In this document: piece after piece, positions 32,601-38,600 of the stretch | Position numbering within the stretch: the first letter of the stretch is position 1 | Layout of the letters: every line of letters starts with the position of its first letter | From: the human T2T-CHM13v2.0 reference genome, Homo sapiens | Strand: one strand, 5' to 3' | Assembly (NCBI RefSeq): GCF_009914755.1 | Contig: NC_060925.1 | Length of the DNA: 64,000 nt | Translations under genes and position numbers: made by a program | The notes under the pieces: generated by a model | Told to the model about the DNA's origin: nothing | The model's database searches: none | What the model saw: only the letters and a program-made list of their open reading frames with translations

Positions 32601-35600
32601 TCATCCCTACTGCCTTTTCAGCATCAGTGCTGAGATAACTAATTGGCATCACAAACCTTACAGGCTTACAACTTCATCCTTTTAGTCACTTTGGCTGAAA
32701 TAATTACTATCTCCCTCGTCTTCTTTCTTTCACACCTGGATTTGCTAATCCGCTAGCAAATCCTGTTGGCTGTCCTTACAAAATATGTCCTAAATCCCAC
32801 CCCTTCCCACCCCCTCCACTACCACCACCCTGCTTCACGCCCACATCACCTCTTGCCTGGATTATGCAGTGGTCTCCTAACCCATTTCCCAGCCCCCATC
32901 CTTCACCCCCTTCGGTCTATTCTCAACCCACTAGCCAAAGGGATCCTTAAAAAACTTAAACCAGTTCACGTCACTTCATGGCTCCAAGCCCTCCACTGGC
33001 TCTCATCTCACTCAGCATAAAATCCAAAGTTCTCACAATGGCCTACAGACCCTCGTGGTGTCTGGCCACTGCTACCTTCTCAGTCTCTTCACCTTGACCC
33101 TCCTTCTCACTCATCTCCCTCCAGCCACGTTAACCTCCTTGCTCTTCCTGCCTGGGAAACAGAGGGAGACTGGTGAGAGTGAGATGTGCTCCTGCCTCAG
33201 GTCCTTTGCACTTGCTGTCCCCATGCCAGGAGCACTCTTCCTCCAGATACCTACGTGGCTCACTCTTCTTCAGCCCTTGACTCTAATGCTTCCTTCTCAG
33301 TGCGGGCTGGTTCCTGGACCACCTGTCTAAAATCTCCATCCTGTCTCACCTTTCCCAGCCCCCTTCCTTATTCTTTGTCAGTATCTAATATGCTCTGTAT
33401 TTTTCTGATTTACTTTTGTCTACTTTCTATCTCACACCCTAGGATGTAAGATGCGTGAGGGCAGGGATTTTTGCCTGTTTTGCTTACTATGGTATCTCCA
33501 GCACCTAGAACAGTTCCTGATGTGAACTCTTATGTACCCTGTTGTATAGAAGGAGTCTATGAAGTGTCCAGGCCTCAGTCATTTCATCTGGAGAATGGGT
33601 TTGCTAATGGAACCTATCTCATGTTTTTTTTTTTTCTTCCTTTTTTTCCGAGATGGAGTCTTGCTCTGTTGCCCAGGCTGGAGTGCAGTGGCTCAGTCTC
33701 AGCTCACTGCAACCTCTGCCTCCTGGGTTCAAGCAATTCTCCTGCCTCAGCCTCTCGAGTAGCTGGGATTACAGGTGCACGCCACCATGCCCAGCTAATT
33801 TTTGTATTTTTAATAGAGACAGGGTTTCACCATGTTGACCAGGCTGGTCTCGAACTCCTGACCTCATGATCCACCCACCTCAGCCTCCCAAAGTGCTGGG
33901 ATTACAGGTGTGAGCCACCACGCCCAGCCATCTCCTGGGGTGTTATGAAGGTCCACTGAGCTGAGTGATTGTGCAGGTGCCCAGGACAGGTCCTGGAACA
34001 CACTAGGTGCTCAGCAAGGCACTCTGCTCATTCACCCCAACTGCCCCATGCTGTGTTTAGGACAGGGGGCTGGGCTGTGCTGGGACATGCCCCACCTAGC
34101 TCTGGACCATGATAACCCATGCCTTACCTGGGTGGATGTCCTGGAACAGGGACTTCCAGATGGTGTACTGCAGGGGGCCTGTGTACTTGGAGGTCGGGAA
34201 GTCTTCATATGTGAGGTTGGTCTCATGGATTTTTCCCTTGAGCCTGGAAGGAGAGCAGGAAAGGGGGCTGCACCAGGGACTGGATTCCTGCCCCAATGCC
34301 AGGGGCCCCGCAGCCACCTTCAGGGCAGCTGGCATAGGATGTGGTCATGAGTGAGAAGTCTGTGGGACTCAGATTCAAGTGCCTGCTTGTGCTGCTTCTG
34401 GCCTCTCTAACCATTCCCTCAGTCTTCTCATCTTTAAAATGGGTGCTATGCTAGCATCAGCCTTCTAGGCTTTTTGTGAGAATTACATGGCATAACATAT
34501 ACAGATGCTCAGCACAGTGCTCGGTCACGGTCAATGCCAAATTCATGATCTTAGCAATCAGTATTGATCACCAACAAACCAATGACTAAGTGTTATTACT
34601 ACTAAGGGAAGATTTGGGGTCACAGAGACCTAGGCTTGAATCCTGGCTTACCAGTTACCAGATGGGGGGCCTTGGCCAACTGATGTAGCTTTTCAGAGCC
34701 TCAGTTTTTTTCTTTTTTTTCTTTTTTTTTTTGAGACAGAGTTTCGCTCTTATTGCCCAGGCTGAAGTGCAATGGCGCGATCTCAGCTCACTGCAACCTC
34801 TGCCTCCTGGGTTCAAGCAATTCTCCTGCCTCAGCCTCCTGAATAGCTGGGACTACAGGTGCCTGCCACCACGCCCGGCTAATTTTTGTATTTTTTTTTA
34901 GTAGAGACGGGGTTTCACCATGTTAGTCAGGCTGGTCCTGAACTCCTGACCTCAGGTAATCCACCTGCCTCGGCCTCCCAAAGTGCTGGGATTACAGGTG
35001 TGAGCCACCGTGCCCAGCGGGAGCCTCAGTTTCTACATGCATGAAATGATGATGACAGTGGTAACTACTTTCAAAGGGACTGAGAGGGTTACAGTAATAT
35101 AAAGCCTTTATATAGTAACACGTAATGCCAACATTATCATAAATAAAATAATATGTAATATATTTATATTATGATTGTAAACACTATTAAATGCTACCTA
35201 CTATCTATAATGTATACAGAATATATTACATATATAATAATGTAAATATATGAAGTCTTTATTCCCAGATCCTTTCTCTCCTGCACCCCTAGAGCCAAGA
35301 CAGCAGGGTCAAAGTGGCTGCCCTCTAGATGGTTTTCAAACTGTGTTCCTCACCATTGCTGCTGCTCCTCTAGTTCAAGCCTCACTGGCTTCATACTCAA
35401 GGCTTCATGCTCCTACCCATAGCAGATGTCCCGTAAATGTTTGATGAAGATTTGAATGAAAGAATTCTCTGCTAAGGATCCCATCTGCCTCCACTCCCAC
35501 TGCCCAGCATGGGTCGAGGAGGGGATGGTCAGCCGGGGAGGGCCCCGGCGGGTGGCACTTACCGCTCGGACAGTGAGGCCACCCCAGCCAGGAAGGTGTG

Positions 35601-38600
35601 CCGGTCGGTTTCAGCCAGCCGCTCCTGCAGGATCTGGGCTCCCTCCTGGACCTTGCGCAGCTGCTGGCTGTAGCGCTGGACTTTCTGCTCGATGTCGGTC
35701 AGCGTGCGGGCCGTGTCCGCCTCCAGCTCCTCTAGCATGGCCTTCTGGCGTTCACGCAGCAGCCGGTGCAGCCGCTCGAAGGCCTCGCCGATAGTGGTCC
35801 GCAGGCTCTTGGTGGAAGACTGTGGGGGACAGTCGTCAGGGGTTATGGCTGGGGGAGCAGATGGGGTGATCTCTGGGTGAGAGGAGGAAATCGAGAGCCT
35901 TGACACACAGAGAGGAAAGGGTGGGAAAGGGCACGCGTGGTGGGGGAAATGTCACATGCAAAAGCATGGTGGTAGGAAAGGATGGGCATGTTCTATGTGG
36001 TCCATTAAATAGCTAATGAAATGGCCCAGGTGAGAAAATGAGGCCTGAACTAGAGGAGCAGCAGCAATGGTGAGGAACACGGTTTGAGAAACATCTAGAG
36101 GGCAGCCTCTTTGACCCTGCTGTGTTGGCTAGAGGGGTACAGAAGAGAAAGGAGCTGGGGATAATGCCCAGGTTTCTGGCTTGGGGGTAGGAGGGATGAG
36201 GGAGCTGGAGTGAGGGCTAGGGGACAGGGTGAAGATGTTCTCTCAAGGACATAGTGAAGTCTTTATTTTTTTTGCTTTTATTATTATTAGTTTTTTGAGA
36301 TGGAGTTTTGCTCCTGTCACCCAGGCTGGAGTGTGATGGCACGATCTCGGATCATTGCAACCTCCACCTCCTGGGTTCAGGCGATTCTCCAGCCTCAGCC
36401 TCCCTAGTAGCTGGGATTACAGGAGCCTGCCACTATGCCCGGATAATTTTTGTATTTTTAGTAGAGATGGGGTTTCACCATGTTGGCCAGGCTGGTCTCA
36501 AACACCTGACGTTAGGTGATCTGCCCACCTTGGCCTCCCAAAGTGCTGGGATTACAGACGTGAGCCATCGTGCCCGGCTGAAGTCTTTATTTTAAAAAAA
36601 TCATTCATGGGGCTCATTCAGGGGGCTCAAGGAAAGATGACAAGATCACAGACATCAAAGAGCTTTGTAAATTGCAACGTATTGAGAAAACCTTGGTGGT
36701 TACTCGCTGTCTCCTGTTACCTCTAGGACCCTCTGGCTAAGGAGCAAGGACTGGTGTTTATAGACAGGATCAGGGAGGTAAGCATGAACTTTCATGGTTT
36801 TCTCTGCCCCCAAGGGCACTGTGAGGCTCAGGAAGGGTGAAGTAGTGAAGGGCACAGGTTTGGTGCCTGACAGTCTGCGTAAGGACTCTAGCTCTGGGTC
36901 TCTAGCTATGGCAACGTCAGTTGCCTAAGAGCTGTGAACCTTAGTTTTCTTATCTGTGAAAGGAGTAACAAAAACTGCATTGTAGGATTGTGGTGAAGAT
37001 GAAATGAGGGGGTGTTGTTGTGCGCACTCCAAGGCGCAGAGAAAGAGCCTGGTTATTGAAGACTGCAATTCTAATAAGCGTTTCCCGGAAGTCTTCATTG
37101 AGAGACGGGTTCTGAGCCGGGGCCTGAGGGATGGGCAGGATGTCAGTTGGGGGTCAGGGGAACAGGCAGAGGGAGCCGCATGAGGAAGGGCTTAACGTCA
37201 GGACGACACGGGCTATAGAAGTGCGGCCAGGCTGCAGCAGCATGTGGGGCCTGCCTCTGCAATTTTACTTTGTGGGATTCTGGCTGGGAGTTCATGGAGT
37301 CAGAAACCCCACTGTGTTCAGTGCCCAGGGCTCTGTGGGAGGCTCTACAAAGGCTCAATTAGGGCCTGTTCCCTCCCCGACGCGCGGCTGCTGGCCTGCA
37401 GGAAGAACTGCTGGCGGTGGGCCAGCCTCGCTGCGCATGCCCACCCAGAACGCCAGGCAGACAAAGGGGGGCGGACGAGAGTCTGGGGATGCACGGCCAG
37501 GCTGCCGTGGCCTTCCTGAGCCTCCTCACCCGGGGAGGGTGGAGGCCTCTGCAGCGGCATGTTGCTGATGGGGAAGATGGGGTCCGTCGTCCCTGCACCA
37601 CCTGGAGCTGCCCTCCACAGGCGCCCAGACTCCGCAGCTACTCCTCTGGCTCCTCCTAGACCACTCTGCAGCACTTAGCCCACTCGCCACCCTCTCCCAG
37701 TTGAAAGTTCTGCTTTGCCTCCCATCTCTGTGACTGCTGCCTCTCTGCCTCCCATGTTCCTCGGGGCTCATCCAGGTCAGCGCCTTCCATCCTCACCCTG
37801 AACACCTGCCCCCATTTTCAACTTGAACTGCTTTAAGGATGGTTCCCAAGTCCATATAGATGGCCTTGCCTGTCTCCTGAGTGCCACACCCATTTTTCCA
37901 ACAGTCTCCCCAACACATCCCTCTGGGGTCCCACAGGTCTTTCCAACTCACTTGGTCTACAAGTCAACTCTTGTCTTTGCCAGCAAACTCACTGTCAGAG
38001 TGATCCTTCTAAAGTGCCAACTGAATCACAGATGATCCTGAGTTTAGGAACCTTCTTTAGCTCCTTGACACGTAGTAAAATGCTGAACTCTTTAGTCTGG
38101 CATTCAAGGACCTTCTCAATTTAACCCTAGCTTACCTCCCTAGCGCCACTGCATTGCAACTCCACCTGCCTAGAATGACCCTACCCAAACCCTGTATTCA
38201 ACTGGCAAACTCCTACTCATCCTGCAAGACCTAGCTTGAAAGTGACCTCTTCAGAGATAACTTTCCTCTCTTTCAGGCACTTGGATGTTCCCAGAGCCTT
38301 TTGTCAACAGTCTTAATACATTGTCCCACATTTTCTGTCTCCCTGGCTAGTAAGTGGGCCCCTGCTGGGTAGGAATGACATCTCCCTCGGCTCTGCACCC
38401 CTGTGCCCATCCCAGAGCCTGGTACAAGGCTGGCAATCAGGAGTTGCTTGAGGGGTGAAGGAGGGAAGAGTCTTGTCTGAGATTGCTCCGTAGAGCTGGG
38501 TGCAGGCTCCAGCTTCTTTCCAGGCTGGGGTTTCAATGTCTCAAGGACGAGAGAGGATGGGAGGGAAAGGGGGGAAGGCAGGGACAGGGCAGCCAGCAGT

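What the first reader, a model, noticed from the sequence alone, without database searches (positions are those of the whole stretch)
35259..36164. 126-bp non-Alu inverted repeat bracketing TRIM62 exon 3
Seen: 35259-35384 (intron 3, 179 nt from the donor) is the ungapped reverse complement of 36039-36164 (intron 2, 220 nt from the acceptor), 114/126 identical. In the sense RNA, 3 mismatches become G-U pairs and 3 are A-C. The 654-nt loop holds exon 3 with its splice signals, and the nearby Alus (33.6, 34.7, 36.3, 38.9, 40.6 kb) are all co-oriented so cannot pair with each other. The right arm lies in L2-like DNA, but 90% identity is far too high for independent L2 copies, so the left arm is a later local inverted copy. 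Established: flanking complementary intronic sequences drive back-splicing and exon skipping, and A-C mismatches are favoured ADAR sites. Inference: a lineage-specific RNA switch giving a 257-nt circRNA and/or frameshifting exon-3 skipping (an NMD target), possibly tuned by editing.
Basis: partly seen in the sequence, partly recalled or inferred. Interest (0 to 1): 0.8.

Follow-up and report, generated by a model that had tools for sequence, protein, structure and literature searches.

The report
Unique inverted repeat bracketing TRIM62 exon 3
A real, one-of-a-kind 126-base inverted duplication sits in the introns on either side of human TRIM62 exon 3 and probably helps that exon form a rare circular RNA seen in brain, but nothing shows it is a regulated switch.

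Summary
Window 35259-35384 is the ungapped reverse complement of 36039-36164, 114 of 126 bases, far beyond chance. The whole T2T genome holds only these two copies. It is not Alu and shows no sign of a multi-copy repeat family, so it is a local inverted duplication. Its divergence is about that of the neighbouring Alus.

It is the only reverse-complementary match between introns 2 and 3, and the arms pair in the predicted fold. The predicted 257-nt exon-3 circle is already in a public catalogue at very low counts: 3 + 1 reads, brain only, 26 samples. An exon 3+4 circle is also catalogued, and inverted Alus in introns 2 and 4 can explain it.

Transitions split 3 G-U to 3 A-C, so nothing suggests selection for pairing. 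I found no evidence of exon-3 skipping or editing. Which arm is the copy, and the L2 claim, could not be tested.

Verdict: a new member of a known kind (non-Alu flanking complementary sequences), probably a weak facilitator of back-splicing. A "switch" is unsupported.

The parts
35259..35384 (-). Left arm of the inverted repeat, in TRIM62 intron 3. It is the 3' arm in the sense pre-mRNA and starts 178 nt downstream of the exon-3 donor. It carries the three A residues that face C (A in the sense RNA at 35263, 35335, 35342).
36039..36164 (-). Right arm of the inverted repeat, in TRIM62 intron 2. It is the 5' arm in the sense pre-mRNA and ends 219 nt upstream of the exon-3 acceptor.
35563..35819 (-). 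TRIM62 exon 3 (257 nt, coding), inside the 654-nt loop with both splice sites. It is catalogued as a single-exon circRNA (hg19 chr1:33625288-33625545, minus strand).
   Evidence: hub annotation
34128..34243 (-). TRIM62 exon 4 (116 nt). Its donor back-splices to the exon-3 acceptor in the catalogued 373-nt exon 3+4 circle (hg19 chr1:33623853-33625545, genomic span 1692).
   Evidence: Arraystar probe hsa_circRNA_404474
28170..30971 (.). Alus in intron 4 (28171-28447, 30394-30679, 30688-30971), opposite in orientation to the intron-2 Alus (36254-36610, 38902-39212, 40688-40894). They are the candidate flanking complements for the exon 3+4 circle.
36024..36173 (+). 8-nt direct repeat (36024-36031 and 36166-36173) that flanks the right arm plus 7 extra bases. 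It may mark an insertion junction, but the evidence is weak.
   Evidence: P = 0.017 per arm from 5000 random placements
35251..35263 (+). 13-mer overlapping the outer edge of the left arm. It is identical to both target-site duplications of the Alu at 36254-36610 (36255-36267, 36579-36591). It is either a weak lead or coincidence.
   Evidence: P = 0.019 per junction

Best explanation
A 126-bp stretch of unique intronic DNA was copied once, in inverted orientation, about 0.8 kb away. Judged from divergence this happened in a primate ancestor, at about the age of the neighbouring Alus or slightly later. The most likely mechanism is a replication or repair template switch (a templated inverted insertion); this step is inferred. 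By accident the two copies came to lie about 180 and 220 nt from the two splice sites of TRIM62 exon 3. In the pre-mRNA they are predicted to form a long duplex that loops out exon 3 and brings its donor and acceptor together (predicted, not measured). This is the known geometry that favours back-splicing, and the repeat probably helps produce the rare 257-nt exon-3 circRNA recorded in brain (causal link inferred). The repeat appears to decay neutrally, and linear splicing of the strong exon-3 sites dominates. It is therefore best seen as a weak, constitutive by-product and not as a regulated switch.
For: Real and beyond chance. Only two copies in the 3.1-Gb genome: with longer queries. No further copy by sensitive blastn or nhmmer in the window plus 200 kb. 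Not Alu and no Rfam family in the arms. Sharp edges. The arms pair in the MFE and centroid folds of the 1021-nt sense RNA; duplex energy is -221.7 kcal/mol sense and -226.1 antisense. It is 1 of 1 reverse-complementary matches between intron 3 and intron 2, and there are none within either intron. The exon-3-only circle is present in Zheng 2016 Supplementary Data 1 (3 + 1 brain reads), with back-splice ratios of 0.136/0.12 in Supplementary Data 2. Intron 3 has the same length in hg19 (1692 - 373 = 1319 nt) as in this window, so the left arm is not private to this assembly. Neutral-looking decay: 6 transitions and 6 transversions, and the transitions split 3 G-U to 3 A-C in the sense RNA. Per-arm divergence is 4.8%, against 4.6-9.7% non-CpG divergence of 20 window Alus from their own consensus. 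Literature: short inverted repeats suffice for circularisation, but stronger hairpins can inhibit it (Liang and Wilusz 2014, abstract and passages). Template switching creates inverted copies and hairpins in one step (Loytynoja and Goldman 2017, abstract and passages).
Against: The circle rests on 4 junction reads in one study. It is absent from the 7,112-entry Guo 2014 catalogue, which lists only the exon 3+4 circle. Brain enrichment is common for circRNAs and may owe nothing to this repeat. No duplex-mapping, editing or mutagenesis data were available, so both pairing in vivo and causality are untested. Liang and Wilusz report that very stable hairpins and G-U pairs can reduce circularisation. 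No outgroup genome was available, so the age, the direction of copying and the template-switch origin are inferences. The junction microhomologies are only marginal (P about 0.02 each before multiple testing). Mismatches cluster in the outer 84 nt (11, against 1 in the inner 42; Fisher p = 0.06). That could mean partial gene conversion or constraint, either of which would upset the dating and the neutrality argument.
Confidence: 0.55

Rival explanations
1. One reading: the repeat is a lineage-specific regulatory RNA switch. Regulated pairing, tuned by ADAR editing at the A-C mismatches, diverts TRIM62 pre-mRNA into a 257-nt circRNA and/or an exon-3-skipped NMD substrate, and so sets TRIM62 protein output.
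For: The geometry and predicted duplex fit. The exon-3 circle exists, is seen only in the two brain samples, and has nominal back-splice ratios of 0.12-0.14. Skipping would give a stop codon 95 nt upstream of the last junction. Three A-C mismatches are present. That ADARs prefer A opposite C is established knowledge, recalled and not checked here.
Against: The ratios rest on 3 reads. The hub's RefSeq table shows no exon-3-skipped transcript, and the two papers that hold both 'TRIM62' and 'exon skipping' gave nothing on it: one read at its two TRIM62 passages, the other seen only as a listing. The one paper that holds both 'TRIM62' and 'A-to-I', seen only in the search listing, is a review of avian interferon-stimulated genes. 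Transitions split 3:3 between wobble-preserving and disruptive, so there is no sign of selection for pairing. The exon-3 splice sites look strong. An equally frequent exon 3+4 circle forms without using this repeat as flanking complement.
Confidence: 0.1
2. The repeat has no effect on splicing. The duplex is unwound (for example by DHX9), hyper-edited, or outcompeted by co-transcriptional splicing, and the few exon-3 back-splice reads arise at the background rate seen for many exons.
For: Read counts are very low. The circle is absent from Guo 2014. Very stable hairpins can inhibit circularisation. The splice sites are strong.
Against: No other flanking complementarity exists for exon 3 alone, yet the single-exon circle was seen in both brain replicates. 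Flanking complementarity is the best-established predictor of back-splicing (otherwise recalled).
Confidence: 0.28
3. The arms are two members of an interspersed repeat family (L2 or another old element) inserted independently in opposite orientation, possibly homogenised later by gene conversion.
For: By my own recall, not tested, the inner flank of each arm carries motifs reminiscent of L2/MIR 3' tails. The uneven mismatch distribution (1/42 against 11/84, p = 0.06) would fit a partial conversion tract.
Against: Only the two arms match anywhere in the genome. Homology stops abruptly at all four edges with no lower-identity continuation. 90% identity is far above what two independent ancient copies would show. 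The nhmmer negatives count for nothing here, because a MIR-like control also found no relatives.
Confidence: 0.07

Closest known systems
Non-Alu intronic reverse-complementary matches that flank circularised exons (the complementary-sequence model of exon circularisation; Liang and Wilusz 2014, seen; Zhang 2014, Ivanov 2015 and Jeck 2013 recalled)
   Same: Inverted complementary sequences lie in the two introns that flank an exon, within a few hundred nt of its splice sites. They are predicted to pair, and a back-spliced circle of exactly that exon is catalogued.
   Different: The arms are unique genomic sequence, not a transposable element, and at 126 nt are longer than the 30-40 nt minimum. 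The circle is very rare, and its dependence on the arms is untested.
Inverted Alu pairs (IRAlus) that flank circRNA exons
   Same: The proposed mechanism is the same. In this gene, IRAlu pairs between introns 2 and 4 (14 matches) are the likely drivers of the exon 3+4 circle.
   Different: The arms show no Alu or 7SL similarity and occur only twice in the genome. They are shorter but more nearly perfect (90% ungapped, against 83-86% gapped for the Alu pairs).
Template-switch mutations that create inverted copies and hairpins (Loytynoja and Goldman 2017; de novo miRNA hairpins by template switching, PNAS 2023, listing and start of abstract only)
   Same: A nearby sequence is copied in reverse complement in one step, which creates RNA-level pairing potential without a transposon.
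   Different: The filtering criteria I read for the described events set only a lower bound of 10 bp on the copied fragment; from recall, most are tens of bases and close to their template. This copy is 126 bp and about 780 bp away, and the ancestral state is unknown here.
Exon looping-out by flanking intronic pairing that causes exon skipping (for example inverted intronic Alus that shift exons from constitutive to alternative; recalled)
   Same: An exon with both splice sites sits in the loop of a long intronic stem.
   Different: I found no skipped isoform of TRIM62 exon 3.

Membership tests
Flanking intronic complementary sequences that promote back-splicing | Reverse-complementary sequences in the introns upstream and downstream of the circularised exon | tested here: met
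   the pair is the sole intron 3 x intron 2 match (1 of 1).
Flanking intronic complementary sequences that promote back-splicing | The arms are predicted to pair with each other and not with competing partners inside their own intron | tested here: met
   MFE and centroid folds; duplex -221.7 kcal/mol; 0 matches within intron 2 and 0 within intron 3. This is prediction only.
Flanking intronic complementary sequences that promote back-splicing | A back-splice junction that uses the bracketed exon's own donor and acceptor is observed | tested here: met
   Zheng 2016 Supplementary Data 1 and 2, with 4 reads in total, brain only. The circle is absent from Guo 2014 Table S2A.
Flanking intronic complementary sequences that promote back-splicing | Circularisation depends on the pairing (lost on arm deletion, restored by compensatory arms) | not testable with these tools
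   This needs a minigene or genome editing.
IRAlu pair | The arms are Alu elements | tested here: not met
   an Alu query does not hit the arms; Metazoa_SRP hits only at the Alus; 2 genomic copies.
Interspersed repeat (L2/MIR or other) copies | Many diverged copies elsewhere in the genome, with homology that extends along a family consensus | tested here: inconclusive
   Searches found only the two arms. Searches found no relatives in 264 kb, but a MIR-like positive control also found none, so ancient families cannot be excluded. No Dfam was available.
Template-switch / templated inverted insertion | Inverted copy of a nearby template with sharp boundaries | tested here: met
Template-switch / templated inverted insertion | Ancestral (outgroup) sequence lacks one arm; microhomology at the switch points | tested here: inconclusive
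   No outgroup genome was held. The 8-nt direct repeat around the right arm (P = 0.017) and the 13-mer at the left outer junction (P = 0.019) are marginal.
ADAR-edited long dsRNA | Observed A-to-I editing in the arms | not tested
   No editing database was available. The one paper holding both 'TRIM62' and 'A-to-I' was seen only in the search listing and is a review of avian interferon-stimulated genes. The predicted duplex has 42 continuous pairs at the inner end and 3 A-C mismatches.
Unproductive splicing (exon skipping coupled to NMD) | Skipping shifts the frame to a premature stop more than 50-55 nt upstream of the last junction | tested here: met
   stop at codon 175, 95 nt upstream.
Unproductive splicing (exon skipping coupled to NMD) | The skipped isoform is observed | tested here: inconclusive
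   The hub's RefSeq table lists 2 TRIM62 transcripts and neither lacks exon 3. Of the two papers holding both 'TRIM62' and 'exon skipping', one was read at its TRIM62 passages and gave nothing; the other was seen only as a listing. I could not query RNA-seq junction data.

The most novel reading that the evidence does not exclude
A one-step templated inverted duplication of unique DNA, with no transposon involved, created a near-perfect 126-bp intronic clamp around a frameshifting exon in a primate ancestor. That event gave birth to a new, brain-expressed single-exon circRNA from TRIM62. It would be the circRNA counterpart of de novo miRNA hairpins born by template switching, and the clamp might also divert some transcripts to exon-3 skipping and NMD.
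Probability: 0.3. Interest if true: 0.5.

Novelty: new member of a known kind. Interest (0 to 1): 0.35.

Why it matters
Most primate-specific circRNAs are attributed to inverted Alus. Here the only flanking complementarity of a circularised exon is a unique local inverted duplication, with no transposon involved. That makes it a small, well-defined test of the pairing model: one 126-bp deletion is enough. It would also show that template switching, and not only transposons, can seed new back-splicing. TRIM62 is an E3 ligase that the papers found in my searches link to muscle atrophy and cancer (titles, abstracts and a reference list only). The catalogued TRIM62 circles are very rare, and one array study of head and neck cancer ranks the exon 3+4 probe among its top up-regulated circRNAs (the same figures recur in a second paper, and a very similar row in a third), so the physiological weight is probably small. 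The repeat has no other copy in the genome, so it is easy to target experimentally.

Tried and rejected
1. Interspersed young repeat: rejected. Whole-genome searches with the arm (126 nt) and with 431-nt and 456-nt flanked queries found only the two arms. The only extra hits were to the AT-rich low-complexity stretch at about 35133-35251.

2. L2/MIR origin: I tried sensitive blastn and nhmmer against the window and against the window plus 200 kb of neighbouring genome. There were no relatives. A MIR-like control fragment (35021-35160; the label comes from my recall) also found none (best E = 0.38). The method therefore cannot see ancient repeats, and the negative is uninformative.

4. Direction of copying from junction signatures: an 8-mer direct repeat flanks the right arm, and a 13-mer at the left outer edge equals an Alu target-site duplication. 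Both are marginal against random placements (P = 0.017 and 0.019 before correcting for 2 arms and 4 junctions), so I drew no conclusion.

5. Retroposed-copy origin: I considered and dropped it, because neither arm has a poly-A or poly-T tail at its end.

6. hAT-type MITE with 8-bp target duplication: dropped, because the ends of the 134-nt interval have no terminal inverted repeats (read).

7. Rfam scan of 34000-37000: only Alu-derived hits and one noise hit (REN-SRE, E = 0.77).

8. Literature. No paper holds 'circTRIM62' or its variants. Of the 35 papers with TRIM62 plus circRNA, 20 were listed; I opened 3, and one gave the Arraystar probe. A search of paper text for the hg19 coordinates returned only unrelated numbers. 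The TRIM62 + A-to-I search listed one paper, a review of avian interferon-stimulated genes that I did not open. The TRIM62 + exon skipping search listed two papers, one read at its TRIM62 passages and one seen only as a listing; neither gave anything relevant.

9. Supplements. Salzman 2013 lists TRIM62 only in gene tables with zeros, and one file went unsearched. Kalmykova 2021 had no occurrence in the 3 files held, and the full catalogue of conserved pairings is not among them. Szabo 2015 had only a mouse linear Trim62 junction, with files cut. Ji 2019 is not held.

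
Full report
**1. The observation**

- The repeat finder finds a single inverted pair in 34000-37500: 35259-35384 against 36039-36164, 126 nt, 90% complementary, 654 nt between the arms.
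- My own count is 114/126 without gaps.
- In the TRIM62 sense RNA (minus strand) the 12 mismatches are 3 G-U, 3 C-opposite-A, and 6 other mismatches.
- The three A residues that face C lie in the intron-3 arm, at 35263, 35335 and 35342.
- Identity drops to random just outside all four edges.
- Gapped, sensitive searches find no lower-identity continuation.
- The match scores 167 bits. The best of 100 dinucleotide shuffles of the Alu-free stretch 35040-36250 scores 45.4.

All five have the same orientation, and they are sense relative to TRIM62 according to the Rfam SRP hits. The statement is incomplete, though. Opposite-orientation Alus lie further out in intron 4 (28171-28447, 30394-30679, 30688-30971) and in intron 1 (45917-46180).

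**2. What it is**

The arm has exactly two places in the 3.1-Gb assembly: itself and its partner. Longer queries that included the flanks added only hits to an AT-rich low-complexity stretch left of the left arm. The arms have no Alu or 7SL similarity and match no Rfam family. So this is not a pair of young interspersed repeats. It is a local inverted duplication of otherwise unique DNA.

I could not test whether the duplicated segment lies inside an ancient repeat such as L2. No repeat library was available. Single-sequence nhmmer against the window plus 200 kb of neighbouring genome found no relatives. That negative carries no weight, because a fragment I recognise from memory as MIR-like (35021-35160) also found none.

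The left arm is not private to this assembly. Catalogue rows in hg19 give a genomic span of 1692 and a spliced length of 373 for exons 3+4. That makes intron 3 1319 nt long, the same as here.

**3. Age and direction**

- The arms differ at 12 sites, 6 transitions and 6 transversions. The K2P distance is 0.102, with a Poisson 95% range of 4.9-16.6%.
- Per-arm divergence is therefore about 4.8%.
- Twenty Alus in the same window differ from their own majority consensus by 4.6-9.7% at non-CpG sites.
- So the duplication is about as old as these Alus, or a little younger.
- With the usual primate rates (recalled: about 1e-9 per site per year) this is a few tens of millions of years. It would be an anthropoid-era event if the arms have evolved neutrally and without gene conversion.
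- Mismatches are uneven, 1 in the inner 42 nt against 11 in the outer 84 (Fisher p = 0.06). This is a caution for the dating.

The direction of copying is unresolved. An 8-nt direct repeat (36024-36031 and 36166-36173) flanks the right arm plus 7 bases. A 13-mer at the left outer edge (35251-35263) equals both target-site duplications of the Alu at 36254-36610. Each feature has an empirical P of about 0.02 before multiple testing, so neither settles anything.

A templated inverted insertion by template switching is the most economical origin. Such events are documented to create inverted copies and hairpins in one step (Loytynoja and Goldman 2017, abstract and passages). This step is inference.

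**4. How it most likely works**

In a 1021-nt sense RNA the arms pair with each other in both the MFE and the centroid structure. The arm-arm duplex energy is -221.7 kcal/mol in the sense RNA and -226.1 in the antisense RNA. The inner 42 positions pair continuously, with one G-U among them. Exon 3 and both of its splice signals lie in the loop.

I mapped all reverse-complementary matches among the TRIM62 introns:
- intron 3 x intron 2: exactly one match, this repeat;
- within intron 2 and within intron 3: none;
- intron 4 x intron 2: 14 matches, all Alu pairs;
- within intron 4: 21 matches.

This map predicts two circles. An exon-3 circle would be supported only by this repeat. An exon 3+4 circle would be supported by distant inverted Alus that face competition from pairs within intron 4.

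Both circles are in print.
- **Guo et al. 2014, Table S2A:** chr1 33623853-33625545, minus strand, average circular fraction 0.096. The 1692-nt span equals window 34128-35819, which is exon 4 through exon 3. This entry is the source of Arraystar probe hsa_circRNA_404474. Tables in three papers annotate it to TRIM62 and list it as about 3.1-fold up in tongue and head and neck carcinoma. Two of these tables carry identical figures, so they are not independent data sets.
- **Zheng et al. 2016, Supplementary Data 1 (header):** the same circle appears with 4 reads (Stomach 1, BRCA_NT 2, CRC_NT 1).
- **Zheng et al. 2016, same file:** It has 3 reads in Brain_rep1, 1 in Brain_rep2 and none in the other 24 samples.
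- **Zheng et al. 2016, Supplementary Data 2:** back-splice ratios are 0.136/0.12 for the exon-3 circle and 0.4/0.33 for the exon 3+4 circle. All rest on a handful of reads.

The exon-3 circle is absent from the Guo catalogue.

My reading is that the repeat is a weak facilitator of exon-3 back-splicing. [quoted passage not shown] They also showed that strengthening the hairpin can inhibit circularisation and that G-U pairs can limit it. This fits a long, very stable duplex that yields little product.

**5. Is it a switch?**

Nothing I found says so.
- Among the 6 transitions, 3 keep a wobble pair in the sense RNA and 3 give A-C. That is the 1:1 split expected without selection for pairing.
- The exon-3 acceptor has a long pyrimidine tract, and the donor is close to consensus.
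- The RefSeq table supplied by the hub has no exon-3-skipped transcript.
- The text searches for TRIM62 with exon skipping or A-to-I editing turned up three papers. I read one at its TRIM62 passages and saw the other two only as listings. None gave anything relevant.
- The NMD arithmetic is correct: skipping gives a stop at codon 175, 95 nt upstream of the last junction. It remains a prediction about an isoform that I did not find.
- Junction-level RNA-seq, editing databases and duplex-mapping data were not available here. Several supplements were cut or not held. The absence of evidence is therefore weak.

**6. Comparison with what is known, and verdict**

The element works like the flanking complementary sequences of the established circRNA biogenesis model. 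It meets the sequence-level criteria: position, orientation, predicted pairing and an observed junction. The functional criterion, dependence of the circle on pairing, is untested. It is not an IRAlu. Its likely origin resembles template-switch mutations, but at a larger scale.

The circRNA itself is already catalogued. I found no description of the repeat in print: no paper holds 'circTRIM62' or its variants, and 3 of the 35 TRIM62-plus-circRNA papers were opened.

I class it as a new member of a known kind, of modest interest. It is a simple natural test case for back-splicing that does not depend on Alu or any other transposon. It is probably of little physiological weight.

Noticed in passing
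window 35251-35263; 36255-36267; 36579-36591: A 13-mer that overlaps the outer edge of the left arm is identical to both target-site duplications of the Alu at 36254-36610. Apart from Alu-Alu matches, it is the only direct match of 10 nt or more between intron 3 and the first 1.4 kb of intron 2. Empirical P is 0.019 per junction. It may be a second templated piece of the same rearrangement, or a coincidence.
   Followed up: partly
window 36024-36031 and 36166-36173: An 8-nt direct repeat flanks the right arm plus 7 extra bases, like a target-site or microhomology duplication (P = 0.017 per arm). If it is real, the right arm is the inserted copy, not the left.
   Followed up: partly
window 30687-31245: Two Alus lie in opposite orientation only about 6 nt apart in intron 4. 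They form a 568-nt self-complementary stretch at 83.6%. This is a strong local hairpin and a likely editing substrate. It would compete with the cross-intron Alu pairing needed for the exon 3+4 circle.
   Followed up: no
window 34696-34707 and 35021-35032: The Alu at 34705-35019 has a 12-nt target-site duplication. By my recall, it landed inside a MIR-like element that continues to about 35150 and is followed by AT-rich low-complexity DNA up to the left arm. The MIR label was not tested.
   Followed up: no
window 35259-36164, + strand: According to the hub table, read-through AZIN2 transcripts run on the plus strand, with exons at 36727-36819 or 36727-41345. Both arms would then also lie within one AZIN2 intron and could pair there (antisense duplex -226.1 kcal/mol). 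The AZIN2 and TRIM62 pre-mRNAs would also be antisense to each other across exon 3.
   Followed up: no
window 35343-35384 / 36039-36080: Mismatches are unevenly spread: 1 in the 42 positions next to the loop, against 11 in the outer 84 (Fisher p = 0.06). This could reflect partial gene conversion, constraint, or chance.
   Followed up: partly
window 34128-35819 (exons 3+4): The 373-nt exon 3+4 circRNA (Arraystar hsa_circRNA_404474, sourced from Guo 2014) appears among the top up-regulated circRNAs in head and neck and tongue squamous carcinoma array tables. It is about 3.1-fold up in all three papers. carry identical figures and a very similar row, so the three are probably not independent data sets.
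   Followed up: partly
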